Assembly (NCBI GenBank): GCA_963667285.1
Contig: OY763326.1
Span: forward strand, 1,490,233-1,554,232
Direction of reading: 5' to 3'
From: Alphaproteobacteria bacterium
GTDB lineage: Bacteria > Pseudomonadota > Alphaproteobacteria > MPNO01
Length of the DNA stretch: 64,000 bases
Under the pieces are notes generated by a model. The model was not told the DNA's origin. It saw nothing but the letters and a program-made list of their open reading frames with translations, and made no database searches. This document shows, one piece after another, positions 6,929 to 61,938 of the stretch (position 1 is the first letter of the stretch; the number at the start of each line of letters is the position of its first letter). A program made the position numbers and the translations under genes.

Positions 6929-7215
6929 CCGACGACGCGATCCGGCTCGACAAGTGGCTCTGGTACGCGCGGCTGTTCACGAGCCGAAGCAAGGCGACCC
7001 GGCTGTGCCGGGAGGGGCGCATCCGGGTGGACGGCAGGGTGACCCGCAAGGCCGATCACCGGGTGGCTCCGGGCAGCGTGCTGACGGTCCCCATGCCGCG
7101 CGAGATCCGGGTGGTTCGCGTGCTGGCGGTGGGCACGCGGCGCGGCCCGCCGGAGGAGGCGAGAAGGCTCTACGAGACCATCCCGCCGCGCCCGCTGCAG
7201 GCGGTCGTCCGATGA
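6925..7215 (+). CDS. S4-domain RNA-binding protein (Hsp15/HslR-like)
   Basis: 96 aa. IRLDKWLWYARLFTSRSKATRLCREGRIRVDGR is a typical S4 alpha-L motif. The ATG overlaps the helicase stop codon (ATGA). Confidence 0.75.
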   Translation: MTDDAIRLDKWLWYARLFTSRSKATRLCREGRIRVDGRVTRKADHRVAPGSVLTVPMPREIRVVRVLAVGTRRGPPEEARRLYETIPPRPLQAVVR

Positions 7216-55178: not shown

Positions 55179-55654
55179 CCGGGGCGGCGGACGCGCTGGC
55201 CGCGCGCATCGGGCGGCTCAACACGGCCTATGCGCACGCCATCGACGACGACCGGCTGGAGGACTGGCCGGGCTTCTTCGCCGCCGACGGGCTCTACCGC
55301 ATCGTCACCAGGGAGAACCACGAGGCCGCGCTGCCGCTCGCCATCGTCCATTGCCAGGGCGCGGCGATGATGCGCGACCGGGTGCGCGCCATGCGGACCG
55401 CCAACATCTTCGAGCCGCACAGCTACTGCCACACGCTGGGCGCGGCCGAGCTCCTGGGGAGCGAGGACGGGGTGCACGCCGCGCGGACCAACTTCATCGT
55501 CGTCCGCACCATGCAGTCGGGGGCGATGACGGTGTTCGCCTGCGGCCGCTATCTCGACCGCATCGTCGAGCGGGACGGCGCCCTCGAACTCGCCGAGCGC
55601 GTCGCGGTCTGCGACTCGCGCACCGTCGACACCCTGCTCGTGGTGCCGCTCTAG
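55175..55654 (+). CDS. aromatic ring-hydroxylating oxygenase beta subunit (NagH-like, NTF2 fold)
   Basis: 159 aa from a GTG that overlaps the alpha subunit's stop codon (GTGA). LEDWPGFFAADGLYRI ... RTANIFEPHSYCH matches the beta-subunit pattern. Confidence 0.8.
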   Translation: MTGAADALAARIGRLNTAYAHAIDDDRLEDWPGFFAADGLYRIVTRENHEAALPLAIVHCQGAAMMRDRVRAMRTANIFEPHSYCHTLGAAELLGSEDGVHAARTNFIVVRTMQSGAMTVFACGRYLDRIVERDGALELAERVAVCDSRTVDTLLVVPL

Positions 55655-55922
55655 CCCGCATTTCTCACCAGGGTCATGGTCTGCGCGGCGCTGTCCGGCC
55701 GACAGGGCAGGAGAGGCGCGCGGCGCGATGCGGGGACATCGGGCAAGCGCCTCGACGCACCCTGTCGGCCGGACAGCGCCGCCCGAAGGGTCGCGCGCAG
55801 GCGTCCGCCCGCTGCGTCGCGGGCCTTAACCGTAGTCCCCGCTACGCTTTTCGGCCCGCTCCTGGCGGATCGAACGCCTGGGCGCGACGCAGGCCGTGAC
55901 AGTGGTGAGAAATGCGGGCTAG
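55651..55922. repeat. 272-bp palindromic MITE/REP-like element with 20-bp perfect terminal inverted repeats and a nested 23-bp inverted repeat
   Basis: CTAGCCCGCATTTCTCACCA at 55651-55670 is the exact reverse complement of TGGTGAGAAATGCGGGCTAG at 55903-55922. The arms extend imperfectly for about 35 nt. An internal inverted repeat pairs GCGGCGCTGTCCGGCCGACAGGG (about 55686-55708) with CCCTGTCGGCCGGACAGCGCCGC (55760-55782). Confidence 0.85.
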
Positions 55923-55925
55923 GCG

Positions 55926-57387
55926 CAATACTGTTCACTTAGTGATTGATCGGTGCTACAGTCGTAGGCCTGTGACGCAGCAGGGGTCAGGCCGATGTCA
56001 CGCGCTGTTGGGACGCTCCCGGCGGGTTCTCGCGTCACCGACTACATCAGTCTGGGTGTGATCGCGAAGACGTTTCCGCTGGATACGGTGCAGTCTGTCC
56101 TACGGGATACCGGGCGGTCGAGCCGGCGCCGGCGTGCGCTTCCGGCGCCTGTGGTGGTGTATTACGTAATCGCGCTTGGGCTCTACATGCAGTCGTCCTA
56201 CCGCGAGGTTCTGCGCTGCCTGCTGGAGGGGGTTCAGTGGCTGGCCGGTCCGTCGCAGGCGCTTGAGGTGGCCGGCAAGTCGGGGATCTCGCAGGCGCGC
56301 ACGCGTCTTGGCTGGGAGCCGCTGCACCGCCTGCATGGCGCGGTGGTGAAGCCGATTGCGGATCGGCTGACCAGGGGGGCGTGGTATGGGCGATGGCGTC
56401 TGGTGAGCCTGGACGGCAGCACGCTGGACGTTGCCGACGAGGCGTCGAACGCCGCGGCGTTCGGCCGGCCCGGCGCCAGCCGGGGCCGCAGCGCCTTCCC
56501 GCAGCTGCGCTTTGTCTCGCTGGTGGAGAACGGCACGCATGTGCTGTTTGCCAGCGAGATGGCGGGCTATGGGACGAGCGAGATCACGCTCGCCAAAGCT
56601 GTGCTTGGCCGGCTGGAGGCCGGCATGCTGTGCTTGGCGGACCGCCAGTTCTTCGGCTTCGCGCTGTGGTCCCTGGCGCGCGGCAGCGGGGCCGACCTGC
56701 TCTGGCGCGTCAAGAAGAACATGCGCCTGGTTCCCGAGCGGCGATTGCCTGACGGCTCTTACCTGAGCACCATCTATCCCTCGCAACGGGATCGCCGCCA
56801 CCGGACCGGCGGGCTCACGGTGCGGGCGATCGACTACCGGCTGGAGGGTGTCGGCGGCGCCGTACCGTTCTATCGTCTCCTCACCACGATCCTCGACCAC
56901 GACGTGGCGCCGGCGCATGAGCTGGCGGCCCTCTATCATGAGCGCTGGGAAATCGAGACCGCGCTCGACGAACTCAAGACCCATCTGCGGGGCGCCAGGA
57001 TCGTCCTGCGCAGCAAGACGCCGGACCTCGTCCGCCAGGAGTTCTATGGCCTCATGATGGCGCACTTCGCCATCCGAAGCCTGATCCATGAGGCCGCGCT
57101 GAAAGCCGACGAAGACCCGGACCGCCTCTCCTTCCTTCACGCTGTGCGGGTGGTGCGTCGAAAGCTGCCCGCCGCCGTAGCCATTCCCCCCTCGGAAGAG
57201 CAAGGCCTTCCATGACGCCGTCCTCGACGAAATCCTTCAGGAACGTGTCGTCTCCAGCCGAAACCGGCAAAACCCGCGCGCCGTCAAACGCAAAATGAGC
57301 AAGTTCCCACTGCGCCGGCCAGACACCCCTCCACTCCCTGCCGTCAATCCAGTCAACAGCATCAAAGTCATAAAGTGAACAGTATTG
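55926..57387 (+). mobile_element. IS4-family insertion sequence (1462 bp) with terminal inverted repeats and a 10-bp target-site duplication
   Basis: The left IR is CAATACTGTTCACTT (55926-55940). The right IR is AAGTGAACAGTATTG (57373-57387), a 15/15 match that extends imperfectly to about 19 bp. Direct repeats GGGCTAGGCG flank it at 55916-55925 and 57388-57397. The single transposase ORF carries the IS4 Y-x2-R-x3-E-x6-K motif. Confidence 0.9.
55995..57215 (+). CDS. IS4-family DDE transposase, apparently truncated by a 1-nt frameshift (ancestral frame continues to 57378)
   Basis: 406 aa. It has an Nterm_IS4-like region (ISLGVIAKTFPLDTV...RRRALPAPVVVYYVIALGLY), DDE residues (VSLDGST, CLADRQF) and the YREK motif YHERWEIETALDELK. 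Frame +1 from 57181 encodes ...AFHDAVLDEILQERVVSSRNRQNPRAVKRKMSKFPLRRPD... and ends 9 bp before the right IR end. Confidence 0.85.
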   Translation: MSRAVGTLPAGSRVTDYISLGVIAKTFPLDTVQSVLRDTGRSSRRRRALPAPVVVYYVIALGLYMQSSYREVLRCLLEGVQWLAGPSQALEVAGKSGISQARTRLGWEPLHRLHGAVVKPIADRLTRGAWYGRWRLVSLDGSTLDVADEASNAAAFGRPGASRGRSAFPQLRFVSLVENGTHVLFASEMAGYGTSEITLAKAVLGRLEAGMLCLADRQFFGFALWSLARGSGADLLWRVKKNMRLVPERRLPDGSYLSTIYPSQRDRRHRTGGLTVRAIDYRLEGVGGAVPFYRLLTTILDHDVAPAHELAALYHERWEIETALDELKTHLRGARIVLRSKTPDLVRQEFYGLMMAHFAIRSLIHEAALKADEDPDRLSFLHAVRVVRRKLPAAVAIPPSEEQGLP

Positions 57388-57400
57388 GGGCTAGGCGGGC

Positions 57401-57811
57401 TCACACCGCGGCGATCGTCTGGACCTCGATCAGGAACGGCTCCTGCACCAGCCGGTCGACCAGCAGCAGCGTGTTCGGCGGGTACTTGCCGTCCGGGAAC
57501 ATCTTGGGGAATTCGCGCAGCCGGAAGCTCATGAACTCCGGGATCCACTGCGAATGCACCATGTAGGTGGTGAACTGGACGACGTTGCCCCAGCCCGCCC
57601 CCGCCGAATCGAGCGCGGCGCCGATATTGGCGAAGACCTGGACGCATTGCGCGTCGAAATCGCGCTCGCCGACGATGTTGCCTTGCGGGTCGGCCGACAG
57701 CATGCCGGCGATGAACAGGAACTCCGAGGCCCTGACCCGCGTCACATGGGTGTACTGGCCCAGCGGCGCGCCGAGCGCGTCGGGGTTGTAGATGTCGATA
57801 TCGGCCGTCAT
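57401..57811 (-). CDS. RidA/YjgF/L-PSP family enamine/imine deaminase-like protein
   Basis: 136 aa. PLGQYTHVTRVRASEFLFIAGMLS and the C-terminal LIEVQTIA are present. A Shine-Dalgarno sequence GGAGGGAGG lies 9 nt upstream of the ATG. Confidence 0.87.
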   Translation of the reverse strand: MTADIDIYNPDALGAPLGQYTHVTRVRASEFLFIAGMLSADPQGNIVGERDFDAQCVQVFANIGAALDSAGAGWGNVVQFTTYMVHSQWIPEFMSFRLREFPKMFPDGKYPPNTLLLVDRLVQEPFLIEVQTIAAV

Positions 57812-57816
57812 GGTTC

Positions 57817-57872
57817 CGCGCCTCCCTCCGGTGGAAGCGCGATCAAGCCCGTTCGCGCCCGCCCGATCAAGC
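57817..57872. repeat. 56-bp direct repeat, copy A (partner at 59589..59644)
   Basis: CGCGCCTCCCTCCGGTGGAAGCGCGATCAAGCCCGTTCGCGCCCGCCCGATCAAGC is 54/56 identical to copy B. It contains the RidA Shine-Dalgarno sequence and two GATCAAGC half-sites. Confidence 0.95.
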
Positions 57873-57965
57873 TATGGCGCCACCCCCCCCCCCCCGCAAC
57901 TCGACCGTGCCCTGCGTCGCCGTCACGCTGGCGGCGCCTGCGAGCGCCCTACCGTCGGTGCGACC
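57873..57965 (-). pseudogene. decayed duplicate of the 3' end of the CBS/BON gene (59664..60362)
   Basis: 57896-57938 aligns with 59789-59831 at 36/43 identities (manual alignment). GGCGCCATAG aligns with the intact GGCGCCGTAA stop region. It reads ...SVTATQGTVEL(G)n against the intact SVTVKQGTVEFWGVVG. About 125 bp of the intact sequence is missing from it. Confidence 0.7.
57883..57895. repeat. C13 (G13 on the minus strand) homopolymer
   Basis: I counted 13 consecutive C residues directly. The intact paralogous sequence at 59783-59788 has C6. Confidence 0.95.
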
Positions 57966-58797
57966 GGTACTGGTCTTCCAGCGTTGCCACGAGGTCGTCC
58001 ACGTCGTCTTCATCCACCACCTCCGTGGCGAAGGGAGCGCCCTCGAGAATTTGCTTGGCGGTCTCGTAGGCAGGCATGAGAGACCGGTTTTGAGGACTGC
58101 CCAGCACGAAGTGTAGATCGATGTCCTCGCTGTTCCCGGCCTCCGCGGCAGATAGATGGCCTCTCCAGCGTCTTGCCTTGTCCTTGATGTGATCGGCGTC
58201 TGCGAGGTCAAACGAAACGGCCTCGTATGCGTGCCAGCGCCCGTTCTTCCAAGCCTTCTTGAACTCGATCCGATCCTGCGCCCCGACGACCACCTTCGGC
58301 TCGAACGGGACATGGATGTCCCGTTCGGCCAACTTCTCGCGAACGGGCCGCCAGATATCCTCGTCCGTCCGTCGGCGATGGTCCGCTTTGCGGTCGAACC
58401 GGGCCACGTAACGTTCGTAGAGGCGTTCAAAGGTCTTGGCCGGATCGGCCGTCAAACCGGCCGCGACCGGAGACCACTGCAACGCGCTGTCATCGTGAGG
58501 CAGAACCTTGAGAGCGAGACGGCGCGCGTCCGCCTGCGGATCGACGAGAGGTTCGCCCTCCGCCCGTTTGGCGATGGATGCAAATCCTCGGTCGACGGCC
58601 CTCATCGCATCTACGAAGGCCCGCCTGTCGAGGTCGGGAAACACGTGCTTCAGACGACCTATGGTCTTGCGGGTCCGCACCTTGAGGAAGCCTGATGCCG
58701 GCGCATGCATGGCGACGCCGACGTTCAGCGCTTCTCCCGACACCACGTCATGGACGTAGCGAAGTATCGTGTAGCTGTAGGCTCGATTCTCGGTCAT
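57949..58797 (-). CDS. DUF3037-like protein of unknown function
   Basis: 282 aa. The N-terminus YSYTILRYVHDVVSGEALNVGVAMH matches the DUF3037 signature as I recall it (Y-s-h-h-R-Y-x-P-D-x-x-x-x-E-x-h-N-V-G-V). Its ATG overlaps the stop codon of the upstream kinase-like gene (ATGA). Confidence 0.7.
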   Translation of the reverse strand: MTENRAYSYTILRYVHDVVSGEALNVGVAMHAPASGFLKVRTRKTIGRLKHVFPDLDRRAFVDAMRAVDRGFASIAKRAEGEPLVDPQADARRLALKVLPHDDSALQWSPVAAGLTADPAKTFERLYERYVARFDRKADHRRRTDEDIWRPVREKLAERDIHVPFEPKVVVGAQDRIEFKKAWKNGRWHAYEAVSFDLADADHIKDKARRWRGHLSAAEAGNSEDIDLHFVLGSPQNRSLMPAYETAKQILEGAPFATEVVDEDDVDDLVATLEDQYRSHRR

Positions 58798-59564
58798 TGC
58801 AGCACCCGCTGAATTTCCGCGATTACCCTGTCCAGGTTATCCCTGCCGCCTCGGATCCGATCCAGCGCTTCATCGACCGCGGGGAAGGCTTCGTTCCATT
58901 CCGGCGGGATGGCGGCACGATACTCCAGCAATCGGGCATCGGACACCCTGGACCATATCTCCGGTAGCGGGGAACCGTCGAGGTCTCGCCTCTTGAGACC
59001 CTTGCAAAATATGTGCCCGTCAGGCTGGTCCAGCCAGTTTAGGCCGCCCTCTCGCCAAGGCGGCAGCCAGCCGATCACGATAGCCGTGGACGGAAACGCA
59101 AGCTCGTGATCGATCAGTCGGATACGGTGACCTGCGACCAGGCAATTCGGGTTGGATATGCGCCGATCCGCGTTCTCGATGACCGCATCGAACAGGAGGG
59201 CAGACAGCGCAACAGGCGCCAATGTTTCACTGACACTGTTCCCCGAAGTCCAGACGCTGAACGGCCTGTTCACCCTTGCTGAGCCGAAACCGACGCTGGA
59301 GCTATCTTGCAGCTGGGCCACGATGCTCGCGTCCGCAACCGCTGCCGATAGCTCAGGCGGGATTTCGACCAGGTAGGGTACTGGGACCGGCAATCCGAGG
59401 TCCGTGGCAAGGCACGCTGCGATCACTTCTCTTGCCAGGTTCAAGACCCCCTCCTGGCACCCGGAGGAGAGCTTGCAGAACACCTCGACGGGAGCCTCGG
59501 TATCCGCCGCGCACAGCATCAGCAAAGGACGGGCGGCCAGAGTCCGCGCGTCGCATGATCTCAT
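58794..59564 (-). CDS. HipA-like (HipA_2-type) putative serine/threonine kinase
   Basis: 256 aa. It has an N-lobe Lys context (PVEVFCKLSS...GVLNLAREVIA), a catalytic-loop-like FDAVIENADRRISNPNCLV (compare the HipA pattern N-x-D-x-H-x-x-N) and the metal-binding-like IRLIDHELAF. The start could instead be the internal Met of MLCAAD. Confidence 0.6.
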   Translation of the reverse strand: MRSCDARTLAARPLLMLCAADTEAPVEVFCKLSSGCQEGVLNLAREVIAACLATDLGLPVPVPYLVEIPPELSAAVADASIVAQLQDSSSVGFGSARVNRPFSVWTSGNSVSETLAPVALSALLFDAVIENADRRISNPNCLVAGHRIRLIDHELAFPSTAIVIGWLPPWREGGLNWLDQPDGHIFCKGLKRRDLDGSPLPEIWSRVSDARLLEYRAAIPPEWNEAFPAVDEALDRIRGGRDNLDRVIAEIQRVLQ

Positions 59565-59588
59565 CTGCGGCCATTCGGCTCAGCAAGA

Positions 59589-59644
59589 CGCGCCTCCCTC
59601 CGGTGGAAGCGCGATCAAGCCGGTTCGCGCCCGCTCGATCAAGC
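59589..59644. repeat. 56-bp direct repeat, copy B (partner at 57817..57872)
   Basis: CGCGCCTCCCTCCGGTGGAAGCGCGATCAAGCCGGTTCGCGCCCGCTCGATCAAGC lies between the CBS/BON gene stop codon and the kinase-like gene. Confidence 0.95.
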
Positions 59645-59663
59645 GCGCCGGCGGGGGCGCGGC

Positions 59664-60362
59664 TTACGGCGCCATCGTCCTGACATTCGAGCGCAGCGCG
59701 CGGTGGTCGACCACCCCCTGGACGCCGGCGATCTCCTCGGCCAGCACCTTCGAGGCGGCGCGCTCGGATTCCGAGCCGACCACCCCCCAGAACTCCACCG
59801 TGCCCTGCTTCACCGTCACGCTGGTGGTGCCGTAGCTCGCCCAGGGCTGTTCCGACAGCGCCCTGTCGACCGCCCGGCGGATCGCCTCGTCGTCCGCGTC
59901 GCTGTCCATCGACACGGTTCCTGCCGAAGCGATCTGGCGGATGATGTTGGCGCGGCTGATCAGCCCGACCACCCTGCCGTCGACGACGATCGGCACCCGC
60001 TTGATGTGGTTGCGTTCCAGCGTCTCCGCGACCTCCGACAGCGACGCCTCGGGGCCGAGCGAGATGACCGGAGCGGTCATCACGTCGCGCGCCGTCTTGC
60101 CATGCGCCTTGGTGAAGTCCTCGGCGAGGTCGGACGGATCGCGCCACAAATTGAGCCACCACGAACCGGAGGATTTTTCGGTGCCGATCTCCGGGCGGCG
60201 CAACAGATCCCCCTCGCTCACGATGCCGAGCAGCGCGCCGTCCTCCTCGACCACGGGGACCGCGCTGATGTGGTGGTCGGTGAGCTTCTGCGCGATCGCC
60301 GCGACCGGCTCGTCCGGCCCGACCGTCACGACGCGGCTGGTCATGATGTCCTTCGCTCTCAT
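59664..60362 (-). CDS. CBS-pair plus BON domain protein
   Basis: 232 aa. Two CBS motifs are present (IMTSRVVTVGPDEPV...HHISAVPVV and VMTAPVISLGPEASL...HIKRVPIV). A C-terminal BON-like segment (VTVKQGTVEFWGVVGSESERAASKVLAEEIAGVQGVVD) follows. Confidence 0.8.
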   Translation of the reverse strand: MRAKDIMTSRVVTVGPDEPVAAIAQKLTDHHISAVPVVEEDGALLGIVSEGDLLRRPEIGTEKSSGSWWLNLWRDPSDLAEDFTKAHGKTARDVMTAPVISLGPEASLSEVAETLERNHIKRVPIVVDGRVVGLISRANIIRQIASAGTVSMDSDADDEAIRRAVDRALSEQPWASYGTTSVTVKQGTVEFWGVVGSESERAASKVLAEEIAGVQGVVDHRALRSNVRTMAP

Positions 60363-60477
60363 CGCCTCGCTCCCCTCCCTCGCGGATCCGCCGCTCGATC
60401 CTCGCCGCCGCGCCCGGCCGTCGCATTGACCTGGATCAAGCGGGCGTGTTGTGGTCCGGGGCAGTATCGGAAGCGGG

Positions 60478-61938
60478 ATGACGCAGCCGACCGAGATCTT
60501 CTTCCTGACCGCCCGGGAGCACGCGCGGCGCCCGGCGGTCGCGGTGCGGCCCGACGCGCCGCTGCGCGAGGTCGTCGGCCGCATGGCGACGGAGAAGGCG
60601 TCCGCCGTCGTCGCGGTCGACGGCGACGGAAGGCCGGCCGGGATCGTCACCGAACGCGACATCGTGCGCCGCGCGACCTTCGCCGCCCCGCCCGACCAGC
60701 CGGTGCGCGACCTGATGTCGGTCCCGGTGCGCTGCATCCGCGAGGACGAGCACCTGTTCATCGCCATCGCCCGGATGCGCCGGCTCGGCCACCGCCACAT
60801 GCCGGTGATCGACGGCGAAGGACGGCTCGCCGGCATGCTCGACCTGCACGACGCGATGGGCCGCGCGGCGCGCGACATGGCGGTCATGATCGACGACCTG
60901 ACACGCGACGACAGCGACGACGGGCTGCGCGAGATCAAGGCCGCCCAGGTCCGGGTCGCCGATACCCTGTTCGCCGCCAATGTCGCCGTCGGCGACATCC
61001 AGGCGACGCTGAGCCACGTCAACAACGACATCTATGCCCGCCTGCTGGAGCGCAACCTCGCGGCGATGGCGGGCGAGGGGCTGGGGTCTCCGCCGGCGCC
61101 GTTCGCGATGATCATCATGGGCTCCGGCGGGCGCCACGAGAACTTCCTGACCCCCGACCAGGATTACGGCTTCGTCATCGAGGACGGCGCCGATGCGCCC
61201 GACGAGCGGGAAGACGGCTGGTTCGCCGCGCTCGCCGAGCGCCTGTCGCGCGACCTCGACGCGGTCGGGCTGCCCTATTGCGACGGCGGGGTGATGGCGA
61301 CCAACCGGCAATGGCGCAAGACGCTCGCCGGGTGGCGGGAGCAGGTCGACACGTGGTGCCGCCGGGCGCGCATCGACCCGCTGCTCGACTTCGACATCTT
61401 CTTCGACTTCCGCCTGGGCTGGGGCGATGCCCGGCTTGCCGCGGCGCTGAGGGAGCACGTCACCCGGCGGACCGCCGGCAACGAAGCGTTCCTGCGCGAG
61501 CTCCACGCCACCAGCCGGGACCACGGCACCGCGCTCGCCTGGTTCGGGCGCTTCGCCACCGAGCGCTCCGATCCCGCCCGTCGCGGCCAGGTGAACCTGA
61601 AGATGCACGGCACCCTGCCGCTGGTCGCCGCGGCGCGGCTGTTCGCGCTGCGCGACGGGGTGGCGGAGACCGGCACGCGCGAACGCCTCGCCGCCTGCCA
61701 CGCGGCAGGCGTCCTGAGCGACGCCGAGCACGACGATCTCAACGCCGCCCGGCAGACCATCTGCCGCCTGCTGCTCGGCCGCCAGCTGGTCGATTTCAGC
61801 GCCGGCGCGGCGGTCTCCAATTTCATCGACCCCGCCGCGCTCACCCCGCGGCGGAAGCGCGAGCTGCGCGAGGCGCTACGCGCCGTCGAGCGCCTGCGCA
61901 AGCGCATGGCGGTCGAGTTCGGCGGCGAGGCGATCTGA
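60478..61938 (+). CDS. CBS-domain protein with DUF294-type putative nucleotidyltransferase and DUF294_C substrate-binding domains
   Basis: CBS pair at the N-terminus. The nucleotidyltransferase core is [21 protein letters not shown]. The C-terminal helical domain carries [21 protein letters not shown] at 60478 is preferred over GTG at 60451. Confidence 0.78.

What the first reader, a model, noticed from the sequence alone, without database searches (positions are those of the whole stretch)
57949..59564. HipA-like kinase translationally coupled to a DUF3037-like protein: candidate uncharacterised toxin-antitoxin or anti-phage module
Two minus-strand ORFs are joined by an ATGA stop/start overlap at 58794-58797. 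They form a compact cassette that looks foreign to its surroundings. GC content is visibly lower than in the flanks. The cassette is bracketed by 56-bp direct repeats and a decayed duplicate of the neighbouring gene's end, and it lies about 560 bp from an IS4 element. The upstream 256-aa protein has the layout of a HipA-type kinase core: a Lys in VEVFCK, a catalytic-loop-like NADRRISNPN, and an Asp in LIDHELAF. It lacks the HipA N-terminal domains, and there is no HipB-like HTH partner. Its partner is instead a 282-aa protein whose N-terminus (YSYTILRYVHDVVSGEALNVGVAM) I recognise as DUF3037, a family with no experimentally defined function that I know of. The kinase-first gene order and non-HTH partner differ from canonical hipBA. 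That makes it a plausible novel kinase-toxin plus antitoxin or sensor pair, or an abortive-infection system.
Basis: partly seen in the sequence, partly recalled or inferred. Interest (0 to 1): 0.82.

Follow-up and report, generated by a model that had tools for sequence, protein, structure and literature searches.

The report
Known kinase–DUF3037 defence pair, kinase frameshifted
The two overlapping genes are a member of an already catalogued, experimentally validated anti-phage toxin–antitoxin family (PADLOC PDC-M66, related to E. coli DS-6/HipAD), and in this genome the kinase toxin gene carries a 2-base deletion that removes its invariant N-terminal nucleotide-binding loop, so it is probably a decaying copy.

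Summary
Two minus-strand ORFs (58794-59564, 57949-58797) share an ATGA overlap and have lower GC than their flanks. They are bracketed by 56-bp direct repeats plus a decayed copy of the neighbouring BON gene's end, and lie 555 bp from an IS4 element.

The domain guesses are correct: Pfam HipA_2 and DUF3037. The pair is not uncharacterised:
- Both proteins match PADLOC PDC-M66A/B over nearly their full length (1e-53, 1e-87).
- Both are homologous to E. coli DS-6A/B (renamed HipAD). There a catalytic Asp mutant abolishes phage defence.
- In the Retron-Sda1 module, kinase deletion abolishes defence and DUF3037 deletion is toxic.

Comparative data fit toxin/antitoxin logic. All 62 evaluable intact kinases have an intact adjacent DUF3037 gene. 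About 11 of 80 DUF3037-anchored loci have a broken or missing kinase of this family.

Against a 98.5%-identical relative it has a 2-nt deletion at 59533/59534. The ancestral TTG start (59586) is now out of frame, and the 256-aa ORF starts at an out-of-frame ATG. It lacks strand β1 and the G-[RK]-T loop, which is as conserved as the catalytic Lys.

Verdict: a known kind, and probably a toxin-dead copy. Low interest.

The parts
58794..59586 (-). HipA_2-family kinase gene (PDC-M66A / DS-6A-like toxin). The ancestral CDS starts at TTG 59586 and is disrupted by a 2-nt deletion.
   Evidence: Pfam HipA_2 4.9e-16. PADLOC PDC-M66A 1.1e-53. Alignment to L081 shows the intact gene starts at TTG and encodes 264 aa. 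Three close relatives keep the intact N-terminus.
58794..59564 (-). It starts at an out-of-frame ATG and rejoins the ancestral frame after the deletion.
   Evidence: There is no Shine-Dalgarno sequence in the 20 nt before ATG 59564.
59533..59534 (-). Site of the 2-nt deletion (GA missing from GGCCG[GA]CCCGT). This frameshift removes strand β1 and the G-[RK]-T-x-P loop from the product.
   Evidence: It is one of only two indels in 6.6 kb against L081. The motif is G17 136/136, R/K18 136/136, T19 132/136, P21 135/136. It is the loop between β1 and β2 in the AF2 model.
57949..58797 (-). DUF3037-family partner gene (PDC-M66B / DS-6B-like putative antitoxin), intact, 282 aa.
   Evidence: Pfam DUF3037 1e-20 over residues 9-131. 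PADLOC PDC-M66B 1e-87 over residues 6-280. Full-length conservation in homologues. hhalign to DS-6B 94.8% probability, E 5e-8.
58794..58797 (-). ATGA stop/start overlap between the kinase and DUF3037 genes.
   Evidence: The same abutting or overlapping arrangement holds in most of 75 homologous loci and in DS-6, whose genes also overlap by 4 nt.
59589..59644 (.). 56-bp direct repeat, upstream copy. It holds the SD GGAGGGAGG (59594-59602, minus strand), 7 nt before the ancestral TTG start.
57817..57872 (.). 56-bp direct repeat, downstream copy. This is the leader and SD of the RidA gene.
57887..57949 (.). Decayed duplicate of the CBS-BON gene's 3' part (copy of 59780-59842, 79% identical). It is the remnant of a 238-281-nt target duplication that is still near-intact in relatives.
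   Evidence: L086 has 238-nt repeats at 97% and L001 has 281-nt repeats at 99% flanking the cassette.
59664..60362 (-). CBS-CBS-BON gene, the upstream neighbour and the source of the duplicated segment.
   Evidence: Pfam CBS and BON
57401..57811 (-). RidA/L-PSP family gene, the downstream neighbour.
   Evidence: Pfam Ribonuc_L-PSP 2.8e-17

Best explanation
This is a chromosomal copy of the two-gene HipA_2 kinase + DUF3037 module. PADLOC catalogues the module as phage-defence candidate PDC-M66, and it is distantly homologous to the validated E. coli system DS-6/HipAD.

In the intact module the small kinase acts as the toxin or effector. It has a PI3/4-kinase/HipA-like fold, and its Gly-rich-type loop sits near the N-terminus. 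The DUF3037 protein is made from the translationally coupled downstream gene and neutralises the kinase. On phage infection the kinase is presumably released and phosphorylates an essential host or phage factor, aborting infection. The family assignment, gene coupling and residue conservation are shown here. Toxin and antitoxin roles are shown for homologues in the literature and supported here by asymmetric gene decay. The trigger and the phosphorylation target are unknown and only inferred.

In this genome the kinase gene has a 2-nt deletion at codon 19. Ribosomes starting at the good SD/TTG start (59586) run out of frame to a stop after 77 codons. The only long ORF starts at an SD-less, out-of-frame ATG. 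Its product lacks β1 and the invariant G-[RK]-T loop. The locus is therefore most likely a toxin-dead remnant with an intact antitoxin gene.

The cassette was inserted, ORF-precise, between the CBS-BON gene and the RidA leader, with duplication of roughly 240-280 bp of the target. It has since been inherited vertically in a Defluviicoccus-like lineage.
For: Family assignment:
- PADLOC PDC-M66A 1.1e-53 (profile positions 26-270 of 270) and PDC-M66B 1e-87 (3-278 of 281).
- Pfam HipA_2 and DUF3037, both above gathering cut-offs.
- hhalign of the kinase family against DS-6A: 98% probability, E 1.8e-13, including the N-terminal motif. Partner family against DS-6B: 94.8%, E 5e-8 over residues 7-236.
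- DS-6 has the same kinase-first order with a 4-nt overlap. Its D139 (NADRT) aligns with window D133 (NADRR).

Function in homologues (literature):
- DS-6 D139A loses defence, and AF3 predicts a kinase-DS-6B complex (PMC13092281).
- In Retron-Sda1, kinase deletion abolishes defence against Bas51 and DUF3037 deletion is toxic. PADLOC calls that module PDC-M66 (PMC12548924).

Fold:
- AF2 model pLDDT 91.3, pTM 0.90. N-lobe order is β1, loop, β2, β3 (K39), αC (E54).
- Foldseek top hits are PI4KIIα (E 9.5e-4, TM 0.56), CtkA, HipA and HipT, at probabilities 0.97-1.0.

Co-conservation:
- The kinase is found in 75 of 80 DUF3037-anchored genome loci, directly adjacent in about 70.
- All 62 evaluable intact kinases in metagenome loci have an intact adjacent DUF3037 gene.
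- The kinase is disrupted or missing next to an intact DUF3037 gene in about 11 of the 80 loci, and in two further sampled places, L083 and L085.

Frameshift:
-.
- The lost motif is invariant: G17 136/136, R/K18 136/136, T19 132/136.
- It is also present in DS-6A (EGSTQP) and the Sda1 kinase (GGSTKP).
- Small Hip kinases carry their Gly-rich loop near the N-terminus (PMC8262856).

Insertion and inheritance.
Against: - No experiment exists for this clade. DS-6 and Sda1 are distant relatives; the partner shares about 23% identity with DS-6B in the hhalign alignment.
- The locus is not in a defence island. Its neighbours are housekeeping genes (thyA, RNase T, CBS proteins, RidA, ring-hydroxylating dioxygenase).
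- The 2-nt deletion could be an assembly error. I cannot inspect reads.
- The rest of the kinase gene is intact, with 5 nt and 2 aa differences from L081. If the deletion is real, inactivation is very recent.
- An N-terminally altered protein from ATG 59564 or Met16 might keep some activity.
- The need for the G-[RK]-T loop is inferred from conservation and topology, not measured.
Confidence: 0.75

Rival explanations
1. The module in this window is intact and functional. Either the 2-nt deletion is a sequencing or assembly artefact, or the 256-aa protein (or a Met16-initiated 241-aa form) is an active kinase that does not need the ancestral N-terminus.
For: The catalytic core residues K31, E46, D133, N138 and D152 are all present. 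Downstream of the deletion the gene shows only 5 nt and 2 aa differences from L081, and the ORF stays open for 256 codons. Gene callers annotate some homologues as 240-243 aa.
Against: The deletion is not in a homopolymer. It is one of only two indels in 6.6 kb, and the other lies in a long poly-G/C tract. The lost G-[RK]-T motif is as invariant as the catalytic Lys in 136 distinct sequences and is kept in DS-6A and Sda1. The 241-aa call in L086 is a mis-called start, because the full N-terminus with a TTG start lies upstream. ATG 59564 has no SD, while the strong SD feeds the dead frame.
Confidence: 0.17
2. The pair is a selfish addiction (toxin-antitoxin) cassette, or a regulatory kinase module for neighbouring genes, with no role in phage defence in this lineage.
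For: The cassette has a stable chromosomal position between housekeeping genes in at least five related genomes, with no neighbouring defence genes. The Tistlia copy also has housekeeping neighbours. The decay asymmetry shows addiction logic, not defence as such.
Against: Two homologous systems protect E. coli from phages in a kinase-dependent way. Other family members sit in defence islands or inside type I R-M loci (L083, L052, L057, L068). Seven IMG/VR viral contigs carry the pair. The neighbours differ between lineages, which argues against a dedicated regulatory link to BON or RidA.
Confidence: 0.08

Closest known systems
PADLOC phage-defence candidate PDC-M66 (PDC-M66A kinase + PDC-M66B DUF3037 protein)
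   Same: Both window proteins match the two PADLOC models over essentially their full length (1.1e-53 and 1e-87). The genes are adjacent, on the same strand, kinase first. The Retron-Sda1-associated module, which PADLOC calls PDC-M66, behaves as a kinase toxin with a DUF3037 antitoxin and defends against phage Bas51 (PMC12548924).
   Different: The window's kinase has lost its first ~19 codons to a frameshift. The locus is not embedded in another defence system. There is no associated HTH gene or retron.
E. coli DS-6 / HipAD (DS-6A WP_000389051.1 + DS-6B WP_000210934.1; DefensePredictor, PMC13092281; Brenes & Laub 2025)
   Same: Homologous kinase (hhalign 98%, E 1.8e-13, 36% identity over ~150 columns) and homologous partner (94.8%, E 5e-8, aligned through most of both domains). 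Same order and 4-nt overlap. The catalytic Asp tested in DS-6 (D139A) corresponds to window D133. The N-terminal G-x-T-x-P motif is shared by the family.
   Different: The relationship is distant. The DS-6B C-terminal part is annotated DUF1829 (HHpred probability 0.78), whereas no Pfam family other than DUF3037 hits the window protein at E<=1. DS-6 is reported from E. coli, and from prophages according to the title of Brenes & Laub, which I could not read. This copy is chromosomal in an alphaproteobacterium.
Canonical HipBA and the small Hip kinase modules (HipBST, hipIN, hipJS; Gerdes et al. 2021, PMC8262856)
   Same: Ser/Thr-kinase toxin logic. Fold-level similarity to HipA and HipT (Foldseek probability 0.97-1.0, TM 0.40-0.50). 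Like HipT/G/I/J/M, the kinase lacks N-subdomain-1, so the Gly-rich-type loop lies near the N-terminus. Like hipIN and hipJS, the kinase gene comes first and the downstream antitoxin is not an HTH protein.
   Different: There is no detectable sequence-profile similarity to E. coli HipA (hhalign probability 2%) or to any PDB chain. There is no HipB. DUF3037 shows no similarity to HipA's N-terminal (HipS-like) region. The best structural match is PI4KIIα rather than HipA.

Membership tests
PADLOC PDC-M66 | Protein matching the PDC-M66A (kinase) model | tested here: met
   1.1e-53, 180 bits, residues 10-256 against profile positions 26-270 of 270. The first ~25 profile positions are unmatched, consistent with the frameshifted N-terminus.
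PADLOC PDC-M66 | Protein matching the PDC-M66B (DUF3037) model | tested here: met
   1e-87, 292 bits, residues 6-280 against profile positions 3-278 of 281.
PADLOC PDC-M66 | The two genes adjacent on the same strand | tested here: met
   ATGA overlap at 58794-58797. The arrangement is conserved in ~70 of 80 loci.
DS-6 / HipAD | Kinase homologous to DS-6A with the catalytic Asp (D139 in NADRT) | tested here: met
   hhalign 98% probability, E 1.8e-13. Window D133 in NADRR is invariant.
DS-6 / HipAD | Partner homologous to DS-6B (DUF3037 N-domain plus C-terminal domain) | tested here: met
   hhalign 94.8%, E 5.3e-8, aligned over residues 7-236 against 5-231. The DUF1829 label of DS-6B is not reproduced for the window protein.
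DS-6 / HipAD | Intact kinase N-lobe (β1 and the G-[RK/S]-T-x-P loop) | tested here: not met
   The 2-nt deletion at 59533/59534 replaces ...ADSGRT with ...DARTLAA. The motif is invariant in 136 sequences.
DS-6 / HipAD | Kinase-dependent protection against phage; antitoxin deletion toxic | not testable with these tools
   Shown only for DS-6 and the Sda1 module in E. coli.
Pfam HipA_2 (PF20613) | Score above the gathering cut-off | tested here: met
   59.2 bits against cut-off 27, residues 37-160 against profile positions 32-155 of 240.
Pfam DUF3037 (PF11236) | Score above the gathering cut-off | tested here: met
   74.5 bits against cut-off 22.6, covering the full profile 1-118.
Canonical HipBA (HipA_C/HipA_N kinase + HipB) | HipA_C / HipA N-terminal domains | tested here: not met
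   No HipA_C, HipA_N or Couple_hipA hit at E<=1. hhalign against E. coli HipA gives probability 2%. Similarity is at fold level only.
Canonical HipBA (HipA_C/HipA_N kinase + HipB) | HipB-type HTH antitoxin encoded upstream | tested here: not met
   The upstream gene is CBS-BON and the downstream partner is DUF3037.
HipBST / hipJS-type (HipS antitoxin) | Antitoxin resembling HipA N-subdomain-1 (HipS-like) | tested here: inconclusive
   hhalign of the DUF3037 family against full-length E. coli HipA found no match (probability 0.1%). The N-domain of the AF2 model is low confidence (pLDDT 54-76), so the fold comparison is not informative.

The most novel reading that the evidence does not exclude
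The retained DUF3037 gene may be more than a leftover antitoxin. Across lineages the kinase is lost repeatedly while the DUF3037 gene stays intact, and DUF3037 genes also sit beside unrelated HipA_C-type kinase plus HipS-HIRAN-like modules inside type I R-M loci. Its well-folded C-terminal α/β domain has a weak XPF/Mus81- and Card1/Can2-nuclease-like fold signal. That domain might have a function of its own, such as DNA binding or sensing, or broad anti-kinase immunity. Separately, the cassette may spread as an ORF-precise unit by Campbell-type recombination through the 240-280-bp target duplication that flanks it.
Probability: 0.12. Interest if true: 0.5.

Novelty: new member of a known kind. 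Interest (0 to 1): 0.2.

Why it matters
It matters little for discovery. The kinase-DUF3037 pairing is already in PADLOC, and homologues have been validated as a toxin/antitoxin-type anti-phage system.

Three points have modest value:
- The comparative data give independent genomic support for the toxin/antitoxin assignment. An intact kinase is never seen without DUF3037 (62 of 62), whereas DUF3037 often outlives the kinase.
- An N-terminal G-[RK]-T-x-P loop is identified as an invariant feature of these kinases. It is a good mutagenesis and autophosphorylation candidate.
- This locus is a clean natural example of very recent toxin inactivation, and of a cassette inserted with a long target duplication.

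The phosphorylation target, the trigger and the DUF3037 fold remain open questions for the whole family.

Tried and rejected
- PDB sequence search with the kinase profile and the DUF3037 profile found nothing significant.
- hhalign of both family profiles against E. coli K-12 HipA was negative. This rejects canonical HipA membership and gives no support for a HipS-like origin of DUF3037.
- Foldseek of the DUF3037 model against PDB gave only weak hits. MUS81/XPF/Hef nuclease domains scored E about 1e-2 with TM 0.35, and Card1/Can2 were weaker. The expected (D/E)xK lysine is not evident, because the conserved stretch reads WHAYE-P-V-S. I therefore do not claim a PD-(D/E)xK nuclease.
- NCBIfam has no family for either protein.
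- tblastn of the DUF3037 protein against the phage record collection found no hit. In plasmids it found only 12 mostly weak hits, one annotated DUF3037 + HipA family kinase.
- The promoter and terminator scan of 57300-60500 found nothing. The cassette may be co-transcribed with its neighbours, but this is not evidence.
- Brenes & Laub 2025, the source of the name HipAD, is not held in the library. The PADLOC embedding preprint does not mention M66 or HipA in its main text.
- The full Retron-Sda1 operon sequence is truncated in the stored supplement, so only the kinase N-terminus could be read.
- Model coordinates are not exposed. I could not measure the distance between the loop and the active site.
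- I considered that the low GC plus the nearby IS4 indicated recent transfer, and rejected it. IS4 is a separate, later insertion that is absent from L081. The cassette is syntenic in L001, L081 and L084-L086.
Full report
**1. The observation**

The ORF list and sequence confirm two minus-strand ORFs. One is 58794-59564 (256 aa) and the other is 57949-58797 (282 aa). They share an ATGA at 58794-58797.

GC content is 0.61-0.64 across about 58000-59600, against 0.68-0.75 on either side.

The repeat finder returns the 56-bp direct repeat at 57817-57872 and 59589-59644 (96% identical). It also returns a 63-nt copy, 79% identical, of an internal 3' part of the neighbouring gene at 57887-57949 (source 59780-59842).

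That neighbour is a CBS-CBS-BON protein gene (59664-60362). On the other side lies a RidA/L-PSP gene (57401-57811). Beyond that is an IS4-family element, with transposase at 55995-57215 and inverted repeats at 55919-55945 and 57368-57394. The element ends 555 bp from the cassette. The description is accurate.

**2. What the proteins are**

Pfam places the upstream protein in HipA_2 (PF20613, 59.2 bits against cut-off 27). It places the downstream protein in DUF3037 (PF11236, 74.5 bits against cut-off 22.6, residues 9-131). NCBIfam has nothing for either.

PADLOC-DB has dedicated models for both. PDC-M66A matches at 1.1e-53 and PDC-M66B at 1e-87, each over essentially the full length. The pair is therefore already a catalogued phage-defence candidate.

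The literature goes further:
- PMC12548924 (PLoS Biol 2025) found a HipA-like + DUF3037 pair next to Retron-Sda1, and PADLOC calls it PDC-M66. Deleting the kinase abolished defence against phage Bas51. Deleting DUF3037 was toxic. The retron parts were dispensable.
- PMC13092281 (DefensePredictor, Science 2026) validated the E. coli pair DS-6, renamed HipAD with reference to Brenes & Laub 2025. A catalytic mutant lost defence, and AF3 predicted a kinase-partner complex that may bind DNA.
- Its supplement gives the DS-6 sequences. It also shows the same kinase-first order, a 4-nt overlap, and the tested mutation D139A.

**3. Relationship to the validated systems**

Profile comparison of the window's kinase family with DS-6A gives 98% probability (E 1.8e-13, 36% identity over about 150 columns). 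The DUF3037 family against DS-6B gives 94.8% (E 5.3e-8), aligned from residue 7 to 236, which runs into the C-terminal domain. DS-6A D139 lies in NADRT and corresponds to window D133 in NADRR. These are distant but real homologues with the same architecture.

By contrast there is no profile-level similarity to E. coli K-12 HipA (probability 2%) or to any PDB sequence. The resemblance to HipA is at fold level only:
- The AF2 model of the intact close homologue P0121 is confident (pLDDT 91.3, pTM 0.90).
- Its best PDB matches are PI4KIIα (E 9.5e-4, TM 0.56), then CtkA, HipA and HipT (probabilities 0.97-1.0, TM 0.40-0.50).

Kinase-first operons with non-HTH antitoxins, and small Hip kinases whose Gly-rich loop lies near the N-terminus, were already described by Gerdes et al. 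2021 (PMC8262856).

**4. Co-conservation and toxin/antitoxin logic**

The DUF3037 partner family is large. There are 504 hits at E<=1e-5 in the 90%-clustered set. Among 50%-identity representatives there are 2179 at E<=1e-3 and 514 at E<=1e-30, mostly full length.

A genome scan gave 80 loci from Alpha-, Beta- and Gammaproteobacteria, Binatia, Acidobacteria, Verrucomicrobiota, Nitrospira, Myxococcales and Flavobacteriaceae. The kinase is present in 75 of them. In about 70 it lies directly upstream, abutting or overlapping the partner gene.

Among these DUF3037-anchored loci the partner ORF is intact but the kinase is often broken or absent:
- It is split by an insertion in L003.
- It is frameshifted in L077 and L037.
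- It is internally or 5'-deleted in L032 and L045.
- It is C-terminally truncated or divergent in L066 (only residues 1-175 match).
- No kinase of this family is found in L027, L052, L056, L057 and L068.

Further sampled places show the same pattern. In L085 the kinase is split by an IS at residue 96. In L083 it is shattered by a 3.3-kb insertion carrying a NACHT gene, inside a type I R-M/AbiE/HigB island.

The reciprocal test used kinase-anchored metagenome loci. Every evaluable intact kinase (62 of 62) has an intact DUF3037 gene immediately downstream. This asymmetry is what a toxin (kinase) and antitoxin (DUF3037) pair predicts, and it agrees with the published deletions. The caveat is that both locus sets were ranked by match quality and were not corrected for phylogeny.

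Seven IMG/VR viral contigs carry both genes. No phage record in the GenBank-derived phage collection does at tblastn sensitivity.

**5. The kinase in this window is damaged**

Homologues are almost all 264 aa, and the window ORF's first residues did not align with them.

The nearest relative is L081, a 7.06-Mb contig. It has the same synteny: thyA, RNase T, CBS/DUF294, CBS-BON, kinase, DUF3037, RidA, ring-hydroxylating dioxygenase. It is 98.5% identical to the window over 6.6 kb. In that span there are only two indels:
- A 4-nt length change in a poly-G/C tract at 57892-57895.
- A 2-nt deletion inside the kinase gene, GGCCG[GA]CCCGT, between window 59534 and 59533.

The ancestral start is TTG at 59586, 7 nt after a GGAGGGAGG Shine-Dalgarno sequence. 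In the window that frame now stops after 77 codons. The 256-aa ORF begins at an ATG in another frame with no SD, and it re-enters the ancestral frame after the deletion.

Three other members of the 90% cluster keep MLSRMAADEIMRRADSGRT[RG]PLL. Only the window's protein reads MRSCDARTLAARPLL.

In the AF2 model the lost segment is strand β1 (residues 3-13) and the β1-β2 loop (14-21). This loop lies 20 residues before the β3 lysine K39, which is the position of a protein-kinase Gly-rich loop (the position is from general kinase knowledge).

Across 136 distinct N-terminal sequences, conservation is G17 136/136, R/K18 136/136, T19 132/136 and P21 135/136. That equals the catalytic K39 and E54, both 136/136. 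DS-6A (EGSTQP) and the Sda1 kinase (GGSTKP) keep the motif as well.

I conclude that the window's kinase is most likely non-functional, and that the inactivation is very recent. The rest of the gene differs from L081 at only 5 nt and 2 aa, and the DUF3037 gene at 8 nt and 4 aa. I cannot exclude an assembly error, to which I give roughly 15-20%.

**6. The partner protein**

The AF2 model of the 282-aa protein has a poorly resolved DUF3037 N-domain (pLDDT 54-76). Its C-terminal α/β domain (145-282) is confident (pLDDT 81-92).

Foldseek gives only weak hits to XPF/Mus81/Hef nuclease domains (E about 1e-2, TM 0.35) and to Card1/Can2. No canonical (D/E)xK motif is evident. I leave the fold open. 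There is no evidence for a HipS-like origin.

**7. How the cassette got there**

The upstream 56-bp repeat copy ends 3 nt before the ancestral TTG start. The downstream copy is the RidA leader with its SD. The DUF3037 stop codon abuts the BON-gene remnant. The inserted DNA is therefore essentially just the two ORFs, and the kinase uses a duplicated copy of RidA's ribosome-binding site.

In more distant syntenic relatives the flanking duplication is much better preserved. It is 238 nt at 97% identity in L086 and 281 nt at 99% in L001 (a Defluviicoccus MAG). Both include 64-74 codons of the BON gene's end. In the window and L081 the downstream copy has shrunk to 63 + 56 nt.

This points to one old insertion with a target duplication of about 240-280 bp. 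Campbell-type recombination is a possible mechanism, but that is inference. The insertion was followed by vertical inheritance in a Defluviicoccus-like lineage.

The IS4 element is unrelated. It belongs to a 1737-bp insertion (55655-57391) that is absent from L081.

**8. Verdict**

However, the system is known: it is catalogued by PADLOC and homologues have been validated as HipAD/DS-6 and the Sda1 module. This copy is probably a toxin-dead remnant. The remaining unknowns (trigger, target, DUF3037 fold) apply to the whole family and are not specific to this locus. Novelty: new member of a known kind. Interest: low.

Noticed in passing
window 55655-57391: This 1737-bp segment is absent from the 98%-identical relative L081, and the flanks overlap by 3 bp (a possible target-site duplication). 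It holds the IS4 element (inverted repeats 55919-55945 and 57368-57394). It also holds a separate ~270-bp palindromic element with 41-nt arms at 55651-55691 and 55882-55922 and a perfect 23-nt inner hairpin at 55685-55707/55760-55782. That second element could be a MITE-like insertion.
   Followed up: partly
window 57880-57895: A long poly-C tract (poly-G on the coding strand) lies between the DUF3037 stop and the RidA leader. It is 4 nt longer than in L081, and this is the only other indel in 6.6 kb. It may be a slippage-prone tract at the edge of the decayed duplication.
   Followed up: no
L086:4962-5199 / 6946-7183; L001:71-351 / 2058-2338: In syntenic relatives the cassette is flanked by near-identical direct repeats of 238 nt (97%) and 281 nt (99%). 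These cover the BON gene's 3' end plus the intergenic leader. The high within-genome identity suggests gene conversion or recent recombination, and it would allow loop-out excision of the cassette.
   Followed up: partly
L052:6274-8834, L057:6130-8864, L068:1951-4178: Some DUF3037 genes lack the HipA_2 kinase and sit right after type I R-M specificity (HsdS) genes. In L052 and L057 the gene is accompanied by a HipA_C-like kinase (DRHxxN motif) and a ~250-aa protein resembling the HipS-HIRAN 'HipN' antitoxins. In L068 a short protein whose sequence looked TIR-like to me (not run through any domain search) and the HipN-like gene flank it. This suggests DUF3037 partners with more than one kinase family.
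   Followed up: no
L083:1139-15841: This is a defence island: type I R-M (HsdR/M/S), a NACHT ATPase, DUF3037, HigB/HTH and AbiEii. The HipA_2 kinase there is shattered, with residues 1-28 lying 3.3 kb upstream of the rest and an internal deletion. The DUF3037 gene is intact.
   Followed up: partly
L085:4025-6004: In a same-site relative whose DUF3037 protein is 88% identical, the kinase is split at residue 96 by a DDE_3 (IS630-like) transposase. A second IS sits between DUF3037 and RidA. This is an independent kinase inactivation in the same lineage.
   Followed up: yes
window 59667-60251 (CBS-BON protein): There is a weak, sub-threshold Pfam hit to 'Rv0078B-related antitoxin' (21.1 bits against cut-off 27.1) within the BON region. 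It is probably not meaningful.
   Followed up: no
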